From NCBI GenBank assembly GCA_963717525.1, contig OY970343.1, positions 1,536,001 to 1,600,000 on the forward strand: 64,000 bases of DNA. Direction: 5' to 3'. The DNA comes from an uncultured Methanoregulaceae archaeon. Its GTDB lineage: Archaea > Halobacteriota > Methanomicrobia > Methanomicrobiales > Methanospirillaceae. How positions within the stretch are numbered: position 1 is the first letter of the stretch; every line of letters begins with the position of its first letter. Both the position numbers and the translations under genes were made by a program. A model generated the notes under the pieces. It did not search any database. It was given only the letters and a program-made list of their open reading frames with translations, and had not been told where the DNA came from. Positions 5,508 to 16,171 of this stretch are shown here, in pieces.

Positions 5508-5612
5508 CAGGGTTCTTCTCCTTTCGCACGCTCGTGCTTTTTGCATTTTACCAGGAGATAATCACCCGGAATCACTTCTCCCGGGATAAAAACGAAAAAA
5601 AATGAGGGGGAG

Positions 5613-5708
5613 TTACGCGCTCTTCGCGCTAGTGTTCTTGTCATTTGCAGCGGCCTTCGCGTTTGCCGATGCCTTCTTCGCGGCTGCGACTGCTTTGGTT
5701 ATCTTCAC
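5613..5708 (-). CDS. Small Lys/Ala-rich peptide, 31 aa (MKITKAVAAAKKASANAKAAANDKNTSAKSA); alternative in-frame GTG at 5723
   Basis: Translated by hand; GGAAGTGA SD-like motif upstream, T-tract downstream; below the ORF-track cutoff. Confidence 0.5.
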   Translation of the reverse strand: MKITKAVAAAKKASANAKAAANDKNTSAKSA

Positions 5709-6787: not shown

Positions 6788-6882
6788 GAGAAGAGGTAGA
6801 GCCGTTGCGGTATTTAGCGGTAAGGATACGGACCGGCAATAACGGAACCGGGGTGGGGGTGACGGGTGGTGTGGAGGGAGGA

Positions 6883-7184
6883 GGGGGAGGGGGGGGTCCC
6901 CCATACCCCCCCTGCCTTCTTTTTTTTAAGTGGGGGGTACCCTCCCCCCCATGTGCCGGCCCAACAGGGGGGTACCCCCCTCCCCCCTCATGACCCGGCC
7001 AGACGATCCGCCAAAATCCCGGAAAACCCCACAGACCCCTCCATTCACGGCAGCAATTCCACGCGAACCACAGGATCAGGCCATGCAGAAAAAGGCGCCG
7101 GATGCGGACAAGGGGGGGAGGGGGGTCCCCCATACCCCCCCTCCCTTCTTTTTTTCAAGTGGGGGGTACCCTCCCCCCCATGTG
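6883..7184. repeat. Two ~70-bp G/C-tract direct repeats (6883..6955 and 7114..7184)
   Basis: GGGGGAGGGGGG(GG)TCCCCCATACCCCCCCT.CCTTCTTTTTTT.AAGTGGGGGGTACCCTCCCCCCCATGTG occurs twice; partial third copy near 6967. Confidence 0.85.
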
Positions 7185-7222
7185 GCTGAGAGGGTGGGGG
7201 GCCCTCCTCCACTAATGTATGC

Positions 7223-7351
7223 GGATTCTCAAAAGGCACGTTGCATTACATGAAGAAGAACGCCGAGGGAGATCAACCGTTTACGTTCAATAAGCATGTC
7301 AAGGAGCGATTGGATCAATGGGACAAGTGTGTAAAAACAGAGAGCAGATAA
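7223..7351 (+). pseudogene. 3' remnant of a solo Cas1/casposase gene (C-terminal HTH region)
   Basis: Reads GFSKGTLHYMKKNAEGDQPFTFNKHVKERLDQWDKCVKTESR*, which matches my recollection of the C-terminus of Methanosarcina-type casposases; no N-terminal part upstream. Confidence 0.7.
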
Positions 7352-7417
7352 TGGAAAGAAAATTCTATGCTATAAAAATCAAATAAAATTTTACCAATTA
7401 TCTTTTTGATTTTGGAT

Positions 7418-8459
7418 TCATCTTAATTTAACAAACTTCATAATTAAATCATTTGGAGAGTTCAAAGCGAGATTAATGTCATAGTTCATTGAAAAATCTG
7501 AAAAAAAGAAAAGCATTTCACGAATATTATATGAAAATAAGTTTGTTAATAAATATTTTTCAATTTGTGAGGAAAAAGTGTTTAAAATCTTATCCGGTTT
7601 GATCCTTTGCTCAAATACTTCACTTTTCAAAGAAGATAGCCATTTTATTTTTCTTCTCAAAATTTTTTTTGCTTGTTCTATGGCAAAAATATCGACTAAT
7701 AGCATCCACAAAACGAATTGACCGATTATAAAAACTATAGATATTGGATCGTTCATCGAATTCATTAAATTTTGATTTATTTGATTTGCAAATAGAAAAA
7801 CGATTAGGCAGAATGGAAGAATATAAACCTGAATTTTTAACCCACTTTTTAGAATTTTATCGACTAAATAGTCAAAAAAATTTTTCAATCTAGAAGGATT
7901 ATTTTGATATTTTATGCAAAATTTGATAATATGAAAATCTGGGAAAATTAATTCACCCAAAATTAACACTGAAGCTAAAAAAAGGATCACTGTTAACAAA
8001 ATACTAGTTCGATTTACAAGAATGGTTGGATCCAATTGATAGAAATAATAGCTCAAAACTAAAAAATAAACAAATATTATAATTAAAAGAGATACCAAAA
8101 AAGGCTTAATTAAAGAGAATTTGCTTTTTAAATCCAATAAATACAATATTTTTGTTTTTTCTGGATCTTTTGCGGACTTCACTGTTTGACTAGATTTTTG
8201 AGAGGATTGACTTGATTCAAAATCATAATATTTTGTCGAAATTTCGTTCATTGACCAAGTGATAATAACAATTAGACTAATGGGAATCCAAGCAGGGAAT
8301 TGTTTCCCTAAATCGGAATTGTATCCAGAGAAAATCGAAGACTACAATGGTAATTAACAAGCCTGTTTTATCTGCTGTTATTGAAGAAAGTTCGGAAAAT
8401 AAAATTTCGATATCAGTTTCGATGATCTGTTGAAAATCGGAAAGCGGCAAATTTTCCAT
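7418..8459 (-). CDS. AT-rich multi-pass membrane protein of probable foreign origin; ORFs 8277..8459 and 7418..8251 join by removing one base near 8341
   Basis: Removing A8341 gives continuous TGLLITIVASIFSGYNSDLGKQFPAWIPISLIVIITWSMNEISTK; composition far more AT-rich than the flanks. Confidence 0.7.
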
Positions 8460-8839
8460 TAATAGTTTATCCTTTTTCTGAAACGATATGTGTTTTCCTT
8501 CATTAAATAAGAAAGAGAGTCAGCCATAATTTTCATATATTTGATATAAAAACCGCAACCCGCGCGCGAGCCAAGCGAGCCCATGAGCCAGAACAGTGAT
8601 ATCAGAAAAGATGCCGCATGTGATGGGTGGCATTTTGGCAGATACCTATAACCTACCGTAACAATGCGAGCACCCAAATTCGAACCAAAAATAAACTAAT
8701 TTTATTAAAATTTTCAAAATATTTCGCGCTCCCCCTCCCATCCAACACCCCGGTCACCTCCATCCGGCCCCATCCCGGCCCCCGATTCCCCGGATAACTA
8801 CCAAATTTTTCGAATCTACCACAGAGCATTTAACCCGCC

Positions 8840-8857
8840 TTATCCTTGTAAGGATAA
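8840..8857. promoter_or_regulatory. Perfect inverted repeat TTATCCTT-GT-AAGGATAA, candidate operator
   Basis: Lies between a TATA-like TTTAAC near 8829 and the ATG at 8863. Confidence 0.45.
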
Positions 8858-8862
8858 TCAAA

Positions 8863-9099
8863 ATGGCCCTGGATTTCTGCACACGTCTCACGAGGAAGGT
8901 CGCGAAGGCCGGGTACCAAAAGAAGGTCGCCCGCCGCATCGCGAGGTTCTGCTACCTCTCCATGACGCTCGTGTGCGGGCTCTTCGGGCTCTTTGAGAAA
9001 GTGAAAGCACCGATCTATCTGACTACCTGTTCCGGGATGCATGCTGCGGGTGCCCGGGCCGGTAACGTATCGCCCGCCTTTTCTGTAATACGCCGTTGA
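8863..9099 (+). CDS. Possible small basic hypothetical protein, 78 aa
   Basis: ATG directly after a putative promoter/operator; no recognisable motif. Confidence 0.3.
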   Translation: MALDFCTRLTRKVAKAGYQKKVARRIARFCYLSMTLVCGLFGLFEKVKAPIYLTTCSGMHAAGARAGNVSPAFSVIRR

Positions 9100-9308
9100 C
9101 CGCCGGTCCGGTCGTTGCTGGATAAGTACCAGTGAGAGGTTGTGCGGAGCTGATCGCAGAGCGCTTCGCAGAACGGGGTGATGGCTTTGGCAGGGGCCGG
9201 GGCTATCGTTCCCTTTACCGGGCCGGCGTTTTTGACATTTTCGGACGAGCGGACGCACTCGTCCCTGCACCGCTGTAAGAATACCAATAATCAAAGGGAG
9301 TGATTCAC

Positions 9309-9842
9309 ATGACAGATACCAGTATCAAGGGACAGGACGTGAACGCGCCGGGTGGGATCGCATCCGGTGCCCTGTACAGCAACCGGATTAACCCCTGCGG
9401 AGCCGTGATCGCCACGGGCGTTCCGTCCGCAGGTGAGACAACCGTTATCCCCCGGGCCGGGGAAGGAGGTGAGATCACTGTCGGTCCGCTGGTCTATACC
9501 CGGTGCAACGCGATCATCTTCGATGCAATCCGCATCCTCGAATGCCTCGGGTACCTGCCGGTGCTCGTGCGCAAATCAAAAATCCCCCTCGACATCGTCG
9601 GCATCCGGGGGGACGGGGCGCTCATCATCGAGGTCGTCCGTTCCCGCCGGCCGCTACCGGATGCCCGCACGGTCTGCATGTTCTGCAGGACAGAGATCGA
9701 TTACCTCCGCGACATGAACCCCCCGTCGCAGTTCCGGAAGATGATCTGGGTGTATTCCCCCCGGTGCCGGTGGAGGTTCTACGATGTCTTCCCCGGCGGT
9801 ATCTGGCTCGCACATGACCTGATGGAGCGGGACCGGAAATAA
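9309..9842 (+). CDS. Hypothetical protein with an Hjc-like PD-(D/E)xK fold pattern
   Basis: LECLGYLPVLVRKSKIPLDIVGIRGDGALIIEVVRS resembles the Hjc core; GGAGTGA SD before ATG 9309. Confidence 0.6.
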   Translation: MTDTSIKGQDVNAPGGIASGALYSNRINPCGAVIATGVPSAGETTVIPRAGEGGEITVGPLVYTRCNAIIFDAIRILECLGYLPVLVRKSKIPLDIVGIRGDGALIIEVVRSRRPLPDARTVCMFCRTEIDYLRDMNPPSQFRKMIWVYSPRCRWRFYDVFPGGIWLAHDLMERDRK

Positions 9843-10006
9843 TCTTTTTTTTGCGGAGAACGTCAGATTTTTTTAATAATGTACGGCAATCACTGGTCAG
9901 ATTTTCACATATCCGAAGGTTTTTACAGGCTCGTACAGCGATACAGGGATAGTTTAAGAAGGAAAAAAACTAACCGGAATCAGCCAAAGATTAACGAGGT
10001 AACTGA

Positions 10007-10144
10007 ATGCCAACGAGTAAGAAACAACTGACGAAGCTGAACCAGGTGAAGAAGGCCAAGGCAGAAGAGCTCTCGAAGCAGGCGGCTGCGGGGAGCAAAG
10101 ACGCGAAGAAGAAGCTCAAGAAACTCGAGAAAAAGATCAAGTGA
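10007..10144 (+). CDS. Small highly basic protein, 45 aa (MPTSKKQLTKLNQVKKAKAEELSKQAAAGSKDAKKKLKKLEKKIK)
   Basis: Translated by hand; GAGGT SD upstream, host-like codons, T-rich tract downstream. Confidence 0.75.
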   Translation: MPTSKKQLTKLNQVKKAKAEELSKQAAAGSKDAKKKLKKLEKKIK

Positions 10145-10491
10145 GCCTTCCTGGATTTCCCCCTCTTTTTATTTTCCTTTTTTAGGTCTCAGAGAAACGA
10201 TGAGCGCTCTGCACGTCGCACCATGCCCGCACATCACCGCAAAACAGGCGGACAAAATTTCTTTTAAGGCGAGGATTCTTTTTTCAGAGAAGAACGATCT
10301 GGTGAATACCTCCAATCCCAGACAGGATAGCCCCCAATCGCTCTTTTTGCACGCCAATAATCCCGGACTGGCGAACCGGGTCAGAACCTGCCCCGGACCG
10401 GCACCCCCCGCGAACCCGTAATAATCCCTCCTGCCTACAGGTAGGTGTCAACGGGCGCCCCGAGACAAAGAGAAAAAAGGAGGAATAAACA

Positions 10492-10995
10492 ATGGCAGAC
10501 TTCAGCCAGAACACCAACGTGAAGAGTGCGGGCCGCAAACTGACGGCCCCCATCGAGGACATCACCTCGTTCAACGCACTCATCCAGTCCGTCATCCTGA
10601 ACAATCCGTTCGGGTGTGTATCGTATATGAGCTCGGGCGCCAGCCACCCGCCCGTAGAAAAGATCCGTGAGTCCTACACGGCACGAATCGTGTACCAGGA
10701 CAACGACGCGAAAGTTGTCGGGAGGACCACCGAGACCTACGGCACGATCACCGGGTTCAACACCGGCATTGCCGCCGTCCTCGCAAACACCGCGAACACC
10801 ACGGCCCACGGCGGCATCCCGGCCTATATGGCGGAGGCCGACAGCTACTCCGCGACCCTCAAATGCCACGACCCCAACGGCGAGCTGTACTACATCAACT
10901 TCTCCCGGCAGCAGGTCACCCTCTCGTCCTATGAGGACGACGGCATCAGGAACTGGATCGAGACCTGGGCAGACGGCGTACCGGCACTTGGATAA
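10492..10995 (+). CDS. Hypothetical protein, 167 aa, with internal duplication
   Basis: Strong AGGAGG SD, strongly C/G-ending codons; repeats ESYTARIVYQDNDAK and DSYSATLKCHDPNGE. Confidence 0.85.
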   Translation: MADFSQNTNVKSAGRKLTAPIEDITSFNALIQSVILNNPFGCVSYMSSGASHPPVEKIRESYTARIVYQDNDAKVVGRTTETYGTITGFNTGIAAVLANTANTTAHGGIPAYMAEADSYSATLKCHDPNGELYYINFSRQQVTLSSYEDDGIRNWIETWADGVPALG

Positions 10996-11030
10996 GCCAA
11001 TCCCCGCGGGGAACCGATCAGGGGGAGATC

Positions 11031-11147
11031 ATGGACAATGAACTCATCATCATCGGGGCTTTCCTCGGCACAGGACTGCTCGCTTATGTGATCGTCCCCG
11101 GCTTGCTCGTCATGTGGGACCGGGTCCTCGACCATATGGAAGAATAA
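11031..11147 (+). CDS. Small single-pass membrane peptide, 38 aa (MDNELIIIGAFLGTGLLAYVIVPGLLVMWDRVLDHMEE)
   Basis: Translated by hand; GGGGGAG SD, one hydrophobic helix. Confidence 0.6.
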   Translation: MDNELIIIGAFLGTGLLAYVIVPGLLVMWDRVLDHMEE

Positions 11148-11184
11148 GAAGACAACCGGCATCCGTGAGCGTGAAAACGATAAT

Positions 11185-11208
11185 GGGAGGGGGCTCACTC
11201 CCCCTCCC
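11185..11208 (+). terminator. GC-rich hairpin, possible terminator
   Basis: GGGAGGGGG-CTCACT-CCCCCTCCC 9-bp stem after the small membrane ORF. Confidence 0.4.
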
Positions 11209-11595
11209 GCCGGGTGCCGGCACAGTTTTGTCGGGTATCAGAAAAAGCAGCTAACGCGAACGATCATCCTCAGAACACCACACCCTGAGCGGTTCCCGTG
11301 AACGGATTTTCCGGAATACTGATCGGGTTCTCCCGGACCCTCCGACGGCCAGAACAAGACTGCTTGCCCCGAACACAACCTGTCTTTCATTAACGAAAGT
11401 CCAGATGCCTAAAAAAACCATTATCGGCCCTGTTTTTATAATTCGGGCTTTAAATACCCCGATTTCCAAACACAGTTTCGAAACCTTTTAATCAAGATCT
11501 CACTAATTTTACACTAACCACAAAGAGTTTAACTCGATGTGTGTGGCATTGCATTTTGAATACTCTCGTGCATTCGCACGCAGGGAGGAGGCTAA

Positions 11596-15432: not shown

Positions 15433-16171
15433 ATGGCAGACAAAAAATCACCAGCAAGTGGATGGCCGCTCGTCAAGGGTGACTTCCATTCAGGAGATGC
15501 AAACAGTCTGTGTTGCTGTCGTCACCTTTGGATCTCACCTCGACGAAGAAGGTATCTGTGGTGCAGGCGCAGCGATGTGCGGGTCCTGTAAGACCGAGAA
15601 TCTCGGTCTCGAGAAGGTCATCGCCAATTACATCGCGAACCCCAACATCCGGTTCATGCTCTGCTGCGGTACCGAGGTCAAAGGACACCTCGCCGGTCAG
15701 ACCATGATCGCTCTCCATAAAGGCGGTGTCAAAGACGGCAGGGTCGTCGGCGCTGAAGGTGCTATCCCCTTCATTGAAAACCTCAATGATGCGGCGATCA
15801 AGCGTTTCCAGGAGCAGATCGAAGTCGTCAACATCATGGAGAGTGAGGACCTCAACACCATCAAGGCCAAGATGAATGAACTCAAGGCCAGAGACCCCGG
15901 CGCTTTCGCGGCTGATGCTATCGTCGTCGAAGTCAAGGAAGCTGCCGGCGGAGTTGAAGTCGCGACAGCAGGGGTGAACCCCCAGTTCCTCGAGATCGAG
16001 AAGAGACTCGACAAGATCGAGAAGAAAATCGAGTTCGTGGATGCTGAAGTGGCACAGCGTGTTGGGAGAAAAATCGGGAGAGATATCGGCATACTGTACG
16101 GCCTCGTTGCAGGATTAATCGTATTTGTCATGCTGCTGTTTATGCTCCAGAAATTGATGGCATTGGTGTAA
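15433..16171 (+). CDS. mtrA: MtrA-MtrG fusion (second mtrA copy); 1-nt insertion at 15507
   Basis: First ~520 nt nearly identical to 14486..15003; C-terminus [33 protein letters not shown] is MtrG. Confidence 0.95.

What the first reader, a model, noticed from the sequence alone, without database searches (positions are those of the whole stretch)
7223..8730. Probable casposase (solo Cas1) relic abutting an AT-rich cargo gene
Seen: an unannotated frame at 7223..7351 reads GFSKGTLHYMKKNAEGDQPFTFNKHVKERLDQW..., begins abruptly after G/C repeats, and is followed convergently by a very AT-rich membrane-protein gene (7418..8459); composition returns to host-like near 8725. Known (from memory, not searched): euryarchaeal family-2 casposases carry a C-terminal HTH extension with a GFSKGTLHYMK-NA--D-PFTLN-HV-ER motif. 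Inference: remains of a casposon or solo-cas1 island whose polB and most of cas1 were deleted, leaving one passenger gene, potentially a membrane-associated defence factor. No terminal inverted repeat could be identified.
Basis: partly seen in the sequence, partly recalled or inferred. Interest (0 to 1): 0.7.

Follow-up and report, generated by a model that had tools for sequence, protein, structure and literature searches.

The report
One-armed casposon remnant keeping cargo gene
This is the surviving end of a casposon (a transposon moved by a CRISPR-type Cas1 integrase) that lost its machinery but kept one intact passenger gene, and similar one-ended leftovers, each with a different passenger and some of them anti-virus genes, recur across this genus of methane-making archaea.

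Summary
Confirmed and extended. The 42-residue peptide is the C-terminal HTH tail of a family-2 casposase: E 4.5e-13 to PDB 6OPM, 30/35 identical to an intact same-genus casposase. It ends at 8654 and is followed by a 14-bp CGCA target copy and a tRNA-Leu-like target motif, so 7221-8686 is one casposon arm; the core and the other end are gone. The cargo gene's frameshift is an assembly error (4 of 4 runs lack the extra base). The gene encodes an intact 346-aa membrane protein of no known family; defence function is not shown. Among 108 same-genus genomes only 2 have full-length casposase or polymerase. All 39 strong casposase fragments start at residue 174 or later, all 27 polymerase fragments at residue 711 or later, and 33 target-proximal casposon ends survive against 3 distal ones. 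Many tails are broken beside long open cargo frames; 9 of 39 cargo proteins hit defence models. Best reading: ordinary insertion, then deletion of the core up to a selected passenger. Why the target-side end survives is unexplained. A new variant of a known element; moderate interest.

The parts
7221..7351 (+). 3' tail of a family-2 casposase (cas1) gene, coding the distal part of the C-terminal HTH; no start codon before the motif; pseudogene fragment
   Evidence: 6OPM 382-420, E 4.5e-13; 30/35 aa identical to the intact casposase of G061; 88.6% nt over 79 nt; DNA profile positions 1093-1200 of 1240, E 1.3e-21; no match to the PolB tail
7418..8459 (-). Cargo gene, 346-aa all-helical protein with several hydrophobic helices, no known family; the window has one spurious base at about 8341
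   Evidence: 4 of 4 runs lack the base; intact protein P0004; 59% identical to the cargo of a casposon arm in G096; dN/dS 0.35 over 277 codons; model pLDDT 74, pTM 0.74
8580..8654 (-). Casposon terminal inverted repeat; outer end at 8654, core 8620-8654, read inward on the - strand
   Evidence: 28 of 34 nt identical to the TIR of the intact casposon in G118, E 0.006; best hit of a TIR profile in the whole genome, E 2.7e-8 (that profile includes the window's own copy; E 0.009 with the first profile, which does not)
8655..8668 (-). Single surviving 14-bp target-site copy, beginning CGCA on the - strand
   Evidence: Same register as the 14-bp duplications of three intact elements and of published family-2 casposons; no second copy at the left junction, best 9 of 14 within 400 nt
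8669..8686 (-). tRNA-Leu-like target motif (GGTTCGAAT, seven free bases, CT, then CGCA); not a tRNA gene
   Evidence: ARAGORN finds no tRNA here; the strict motif occurs 5 times in the genome, at 3 tRNA-Leu genes and the 2 casposon relics, 0.05 expected; same positions as the bases needed in vitro (PMC6977970)
6877..7213 (.). Dispersed G/C-rich hairpin repeat (two units of about 105 nt); marks the left break here but is not part of the casposon
   Evidence: 25 profile hits at about 17 places in the genome; absent from the three intact casposons; no Rfam family near its threshold

Best explanation
A complete family-2 casposon (layout in relatives: TIR - cargo - cas1 pointing outward - HTH gene - two small genes, one with an HNH-like zinc motif - polB pointing outward - cargo - TIR) was inserted by its casposase at a tRNA-Leu-like site. 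One or more deletions then removed the far TIR, the far arm, polB and nine tenths of cas1, ending at a G/C hairpin repeat. What remains is the target-side arm: cas1 tail, one intact passenger gene, TIR, target copy, target motif. It cannot move itself. The tail is neutral debris that survives because it lies next to a gene kept by selection; the regenerated target can take further insertions. SHOWN: identity of tail, TIR, target copy and motif; absence of the core from the assembly; intact cargo; recurrence of the layout across the genus. INFERRED: the order of events, selection on this particular cargo, and its function (my best guess is a membrane-bound stress or anti-virus effector, about 35%). 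OPEN: why the target-side end is the one that survives at sites that are not tRNA genes.
For: Tail, TIR, target copy, motif. Intact templates with cargo between the cas1 stop and the TIR in G061, G118, G050. No other casposase piece and no HTH/HNH gene in the genome; a second relic at C1:96795-98153 has a polB tail, another cargo gene, a TIR and a CGCA copy. Genus, 108 genomes: 2 full-length casposases; 39 listed partial matches of at least 44% identity, none starting before residue 174 of 415, 28 starting at 331 or later (my count; the 20 weakest rows were not listed). PolB: 2 full, 27 of 27 fragments start at residue 711 of 883 or later. 28 of 41 tail loci have a TIR 0.8-5.4 kb downstream. 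Left breaks are scattered, nt 593-1125, 30 of 37 at 990 or later, so there is no fixed cut site. 13 of 26 tails carry a stop or frameshift (26 lesions in 4.7 kb) while 24 of 26 arms hold an open frame of 690 nt or more. Cargo orientation is 24 with and 25 against the tail, so the tail is unlikely to act as a promoter. Two internally deleted elements keep both TIRs and the duplication around a cas1 tail plus cargo (L061, L068), which shows deletion after full insertion.
Against: Symmetric decay does not predict the polarity: 33 target-side against 3 far ends outside intact elements, and 18 against 2 in a flank-blind scan. Linkage to an essential tRNA explains only part: of the 33, 13 are at tRNA-Leu (one at a contig end, probable), 16 are not, 4 were not fetched (my tally). 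Tail length does not correlate with identity to intact cas1 (rho -0.10, p 0.57), which gives no support to gradual erosion. The window's own tail has no lesion. dN/dS 0.35 may date from before the core was lost. Lesion counts come from pairwise alignment and include assembly errors like the one found here. The assembly is 87% complete, so a helper casposon elsewhere is not excluded.
Confidence: 0.62

Rival explanations
1. The arm was not made here. A ready-made relic (tail, cargo, TIR, target copy and about 18 nt of tRNA-Leu 3' end) was carried into a variable slot between the G/C repeat and a multi-copy gene cassette by recombination or on another mobile element. The polarity would then be inherited from a time when the arm was anchored at a real tRNA.
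For: The slot holds other AT-rich DNA in G121, G015 and G101 and other casposon arms, all with the motif toward the cassette, in G122 and G103; G117 lacks the whole 4.5 kb. The strict motif is expected 0.05 times per genome, yet both non-tRNA copies carry a TIR. A few non-tRNA flanks resemble tRNA-Leu beyond the motif (L055, L075, L130, L132). 4 of 613 pairs of target copies from different flanks agree at 9 of 10 positions (about 0.5 expected by my rough estimate). In vivo, the M. mazei casposon appeared to bring its own target copy (PMC10359463, passages).
Against: In 20 non-tRNA flanks only the positions the casposase needs are conserved (15-20 of 20 at -32 to -24 and 18-19 of 20 at CGCA, against 7-10 of 20 at -21 to -17 and background upstream), which fits enzyme choice better than random decay of a tRNA piece. 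The same cargo sits at another site with another target copy in G096, pointing to separate insertions of a full element.
Confidence: 0.18
2. One-ended or abortive casposition: only one TIR was joined to the target, and a truncated copy (for instance a PolB product stalled on entering the outward-pointing cas1 or polB gene) was fixed by repair. The relic never had a second end.
For: It explains the polarity and the pile-up of breaks just inside the 3' ends of both core genes. Single-ended products form in vitro, and bottom-strand joining, which by my reading of the assay makes the retained junction, needed a shorter overhang (PMC6977970; the authors call the significance unclear). One clone with a misplaced second end was seen for the A. 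boonei enzyme (PMC5137440).
Against: The model figure in PMC5137440 puts the first attack at the tRNA-TSD border, which would keep the opposite junction. L061 and L068 keep both ends. One other-genus genome (G052) shows 2 near and 2 far ends. No in vivo evidence.
Confidence: 0.12
3. The cas1 tail is functional, as a small HTH peptide or as a cis site or homology anchor that lets cargo be swapped between arms.
For: Most breaks fall in or just before the HTH-coding region; both cas1-bearing mini-elements keep it; stacked tails occur (G061 internal polB tail, L085, L062, L095, L069).
Against: 13 of 26 tails are broken; no common start or boundary; 10 of 33 target-side ends show no tail; the window's tail lacks the first HTH helices.
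Confidence: 0.08

Closest known systems
Family-2 casposons of methanogens (MetFor-C1 of Methanoregula; M. mazei elements; Krupovic et al. 2014 PMC4046053, 2016 PMC4779613)
   Same: Casposase with C-terminal HTH; TIR beginning GGG(T/A)(T/A)ATAG; 14-bp target copy with CGCA; tRNA-Leu or tRNA-like target; variable cargo beside the TIR (against 11, 33, 51).
   Different: Only one end; no catalytic Cas1 domain, PolB, HNH or HTH genes; cannot move itself.
Solo-TIRs of Methanosarcina mazei (PMC4779613)
   Same: One-ended casposon remnant next to a CGCA motif, more common than intact elements.
   Different: Those were defined as a TIR without casposon genes (19-31 bp, PMC6977970). Here the TIR holds a whole intact passenger gene and the tail of a core gene; the passages read do not report which end survives.
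M. mazei casposase, PDB 6OPM (Hickman et al. 2020, PMC6977970)
   Same: The peptide is its residues 382-420; the conserved target positions in the relic flanks (GTTCGA 12-17 bp upstream, the bases just before CGCA, CGCA, AT-rich end) are those whose mutation reduced or abolished integration.
   Different: Residues 1-381, including the whole active site, are absent.
Tandem casposon arrays at one target (PMC4779613, PMC5137440)
   Same: Target regenerated on one side and re-used; seen here at the far end of the G118 element and in stacked tails.
   Different: In this genus the older units are reduced to tail-cargo-TIR cassettes; the window holds a single one.

Membership tests
Family-2 casposon (complete element) | Cas1 with C-terminal HTH fusion | tested here: met
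   Tail only: 6OPM 382-420, E 4.5e-13; 30/35 identical to the G061 casposase
Family-2 casposon (complete element) | Full catalytic Cas1 domain | tested here: not met
   Full-length query finds only residues 370-404 here, and a 29%-identical separate Cas1-like frame elsewhere in the genome
Family-2 casposon (complete element) | PolB gene | tested here: not met
   None at the locus; only a 41-43-codon polB tail at C1:98010-98138
Family-2 casposon (complete element) | HNH and two HTH core genes | tested here: not met
   tblastn with the core proteins of G061 and G118 finds none in the assembly, which is 87% complete
Family-2 casposon (complete element) | Casposon-type TIR | tested here: met
   One TIR, outer end 8654
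Family-2 casposon (complete element) | Pair of TIRs and duplicated 14-bp target | tested here: not met
   Whole-genome profile scans find two TIRs, 1.45 Mb apart, both target-side; best second target copy 9 of 14
Family-2 casposon (complete element) | Target with CGCA and upstream T-loop motif | tested here: met
   8655-8686 in exact register with tRNA-Leu targets; no tRNA gene
Family-2 casposon (complete element) | Mobility | not testable with these tools
   No machinery left; mobilisation in trans would need two ends
Solo-TIR (Krupovic 2016) | TIR with no casposon genes | tested here: not met
   Carries a cas1 tail and a 346-aa cargo gene
Non-autonomous mini-casposon | Both TIRs and target duplication around cargo | tested here: not met
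   Not met in the window; met by L061, L068 and L129 in relatives
Anti-phage defence gene (cargo) | Match to a known defence family or fold | tested here: inconclusive
   No PADLOC, Pfam or NCBIfam hit; Foldseek none at E 0.001, best Z 8.0 over a 60-residue hairpin

The most novel reading that the evidence does not exclude
In Methanoregula, casposons act as a polarised gene-cassette delivery system: the Cas1 integrase adds gene-sized cargo next to a regenerated T-loop/CGCA target, the core is shed by a directed process (one-ended insertion, or cleavage at the far TIR-target-TIR junction), and tail-cargo-TIR units and two-ended mini-casposons are stacked, swapped or moved in trans. That would be a living intermediate between a transposon and CRISPR-style leader-side acquisition, storing whole defence and membrane genes instead of spacers.
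Probability: 0.2. Interest if true: 0.8.

Novelty: new variant of a known kind. Interest (0 to 1): 0.5.

Why it matters
The locus alone is transposon debris. The pattern behind it is more useful. Casposons are called rare, yet 28 of 108 genomes of this genus keep an exact target-side end while 2 have an intact element, and the ends usually hold an intact, different passenger gene, among them an Avs2 STAND protein, a PD-Lambda-4-like protein and an ApeA-like HEPN protein. That makes casposons a route of gene delivery into methanogen chromosomes and makes these arms a hunting ground for new defence genes. The flanks give an in vivo target logo that matches the in vitro mutagenesis. The survival of one particular end, and natural two-ended mini-casposons of 1.8-5.1 kb, give direct tests of the open questions of strand order, excision and mobilisation in trans, which bear on how Cas1 came to write CRISPR arrays from one side.

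Tried and rejected
G/C repeats as casposon TIRs or target: rejected; not in the intact elements, about 17 places in the genome, and within 250 nt of the tail in only 5 of 41 relic loci (the profile was built from this genome and may miss diverged copies). Left junction as the second target copy: best 9 of 14, no better than other loci; only the shared TGCG/GCGG microhomology is suggestive. Tail as PolB HTH: no similarity. Cargo as a pseudogene: rejected. Cargo function: no family in Pfam, NCBIfam, PADLOC; 2, 6 and 4 relatives in three searches; Atlas hits under 0.9 and TM under 0.35; no fold match; no related metagenome loci (the alignment query was not accepted). No RNA holder listed. In run X10 the flanks have depth about 26 and the arm 0-5: possibly a polymorphic slot, but contig depth cannot show this. 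Age test by tail length against identity: no signal. Polarity outside the genus: in 48 genomes of the genus of G050 a shorter, noisier pattern gave 6 clear target-side ends (one is the intact G050 element) and 1 far end among 21 matches, with 10 control matches; G052 gave 2 and 2; weak. Rfam: nothing near threshold. In one search loci L095 and L096 were anchored on the wrong hit and count among the 13 without a TIR; L090 had no cas1 hit and was dropped; L094-L096 (other genera) and L055 (polB tail) were left out of the breakpoint and lesion counts. Six cas1 fragments on short contigs or at contig ends were not fetched at the wider flank.

Full report
CONTEXT. The window lies between mcr and mtr genes of a methanogen; a protein of a same-genus genome is labelled Methanoregula sp. 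by its source. It is G000:C1:1536001-1600000, an 87% complete single-contig assembly.

OBSERVATION. The frame 7223-7351 reads as reported. Its only PDB match is the C-terminus of the M. mazei casposase, 6OPM residues 382-420, E 4.5e-13. It is 30/35 identical to the intact casposase of G061, 88.6% at DNA level over 79 nt, and unrelated to the PolB tail. The C-terminal HTH is described as specific to family-2 casposases (PMC4046053, passages) and is needed for integration (PMC6977970, passages). The AT-rich gene is there. Its break is an assembly error: contigs of 4 of 4 runs, from 4 study codes, lack one base at 8341, and the intact 346-aa protein is on record (P0004). Single contigs bridge the repeat, tail, cargo and right flank in two runs; a possible source sample is among them.

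THE MISSING END. Three intact casposons were found for comparison: G061 (about 15 kb), G118 (9.0 kb) and, in another genus, G050 (9.3 kb). All run TIR - cargo - cas1 (outward) - HTH gene - two small genes - polB (outward) - cargo - TIR, with a 14-bp duplication and a tRNA-Leu 3' end at one side (gene names other than cas1 rest on position, size and a weak PolB Pfam hit). Window 8620-8654 matches the G118 TIR at 28 of 34 nt and is one of only two TIR hits in the genome. Directly outside lie 14 bp that begin with CGCA on the - strand (8655-8668), then GGTTCGAAT at the distance it has in tRNA-Leu. No tRNA is called here. The strict motif occurs five times in the genome: three tRNA-Leu genes and the two TIR flanks, against 0.05 expected. 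Published family-2 elements have this TIR type, 14-bp duplications and CGCA (PMC4046053 supplement hits; PMC4779613 text parts 2-4 of 6 and supplement part 10; its supplementary file 1 could not be searched). So 7221-8686 is one casposon arm. No second TIR, second target copy, catalytic cas1, HTH or HNH gene is in the assembly. A second relic at C1:96795-98153 has the same plan with a polB tail and another cargo gene, and also breaks at a G/C repeat.

THE GENUS PATTERN (108 genomes; kin are not independent, many assemblies are partial). Full-length casposase: 2 genomes. Partial matches of at least 44% identity among the 150 rows listed: 39, none starting before residue 174 of 415, 35 reaching residue 377 or beyond (my count). 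PolB: 2 full, 27 of 27 fragments start at residue 711 of 883 or later. Exact TIR with CGCA 14 bp outside (target-side end): 35 matches in 28 genomes; with the target copy's other end adjacent (far end): 5 in 5 genomes; controls 0; two of each belong to the intact elements. A scan blind to the flank gave 23 matches: 19 target-side, 3 far, 1 unclear by my reading; without the intact element 18 against 2, nominal p 4e-4. 23 of the 33 target-side ends have a cas1 or polB tail inward (17, five of them by coordinates only; 6). From the other side, 28 of 41 tail loci have a TIR 0.8-5.4 kb downstream, mostly across AT-rich DNA. Of 53 target-side ends in fetched loci, 17 are at tRNA-Leu genes of all five anticodons and 36 at tRNA-like sites in many different flanks. 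In 20 non-tRNA flanks conservation is bipartite and coincides with the positions whose mutation hurt integration in vitro. Three elements keep both TIRs and the duplication with the core gone: L061 (3.2 kb, 14/14), L068 (5.1 kb, 13/14), L129 (1.8 kb, 13/14).

CARGO. Arms carry mostly different genes (5 similar pairs in an all-against-all search), often one long gene, in either orientation (24:25). 13 of 26 tails have a stop or frameshift, 24 of 26 arms an open frame of 690 nt or more, including a 1537-aa Avs2 match beside a frameshifted tail. 9 of 39 relic cargo proteins hit PADLOC at E 0.001 or better, three of them weakly. The window's cargo has a 59%-identical relative in a casposon arm of G096 at a different site with a different target copy, dN/dS 0.35, and only a handful of other relatives. 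The model is helical with a C-terminal hairpin, pLDDT 74; crude hydropathy membrane helices; no fold or family match. Defence is a guess from company, not a result.

THE SITE. G117 has the glyoxalase gene directly before the mtr region; G121, G015 and G101 have the G/C repeat, other AT-rich DNA and the same right-hand cassette (window 8725-11229); G122 and G103 have other casposon arms there, facing the same way. The arm thus sits in a variable slot.

MECHANISM. Most likely (0.62): full insertion, then deletion of the far arm and core, stopped by selection on the passenger. The mini-elements prove that such deletions occur after full insertion, and scattered breaks argue against a programmed cut. 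Against it, nothing in symmetric decay predicts the loss of far ends at sites that are not tRNA genes (16 such target-side ends against at most 2 unpaired far ends), and tail length shows no age signal. Rivals: import of a ready-made arm with its target (0.18), one-ended integration (0.12; the two biochemical papers point in opposite directions on strand order), a functional tail (0.08). In vivo excision in M. mazei left clean empty sites (PMC10359463, passages), so normal excision does not produce these relics.

WHAT IS KNOWN. Family-2 casposons in Methanoregula, solo-TIRs, decayed and tandem copies and varied cargo are in print. I did not find cargo-retaining one-armed relics, their polarity or natural mini-casposons described in seven library searches or in passages of PMC9939771 and PMC13343696; subscription papers are not covered, and most papers listed were seen as titles and abstract starts only. 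Unchecked notes of this scan report a polB tail relic, a casposon graveyard and stacked cassettes in other genomes; they are leads, not support.

VERDICT. Identity as a family-2 casposon remnant: about 0.97. Not a complete member of the family (core and second end tested, not met). New variant of a known kind; interest 0.5, carried by the genus-wide pattern rather than by this locus.

Noticed in passing
G000:C1:96764-98517 (L055): Second casposon relic in the same genome: G/C repeat, about 26 nt resembling the cas1 3' end, 41-codon polB tail, 345-aa cargo (PADLOC PDC-M14A, E 1.8e-11), TIR, CGCA copy and motif.
   Followed up: yes
window 6877-7213; about 17 places in G000: Dispersed G/C hairpin repeat of about 105 nt, often as two units with a conserved spacer; no Rfam family. 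Four of the five two-unit copies are followed by AT-rich foreign-looking genes. REP- or MITE-like; origin unknown.
   Followed up: partly
window 8725-11229: Multi-copy cassette of unannotated genes (78, 180, 45 and 167 aa) that in many relatives directly follows AT-rich variable genes; partial copies at C1:1684155-1698381 and 2241573. No Pfam or NCBIfam hit. It may be the fixed end of another mobile element.
   Followed up: partly
window 9880-10150: About 270 nt around a 45-aa basic ORF is conserved at 80-89% DNA identity in most genomes of the genus; a similar basic small ORF lies on the - strand near 5610-5690.
   Followed up: no
L061 (G079:C80), L068 (G078:C9), L129 (G063:C74): Natural core-less mini-casposons at tRNA-Leu with both TIRs and the 14-bp duplication; L129 also has two internal TIRs.
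   Followed up: partly
L049:16365-16508; L085; L062; L095; L069: Stacked tails: a polB tail between two cargo genes inside an intact casposon, and cas1 and polB tails joined in the same direction, as expected from deletions across tandem elements.
   Followed up: partly
L051:16809-16904: TIR - target copy - TIR junction at the far end of the intact G118 casposon: it was inserted next to an older element's end.
   Followed up: partly
L074:3204-7814; L059:7105-10947; L060:3949-5286: Defence-type cargo in relic arms: Avs2 (1537 aa), PD-Lambda-4_A (1281 aa), ApeA-like HEPN (446 aa).
   Followed up: partly
G000:C1:1397947-1398288: Separate Cas1-like frame of about 320 codons, with counterparts in most genomes of the genus; probably the group-1 Cas1-solo of Methanomicrobiales (inferred from PMC4046053; not tested).
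   Followed up: no
window 15433-16171: The second mtrA-like gene is split between two frames near its start (52-aa and 237-aa ORFs); possibly another assembly indel. A one-base difference is also listed at 7089.
   Followed up: no
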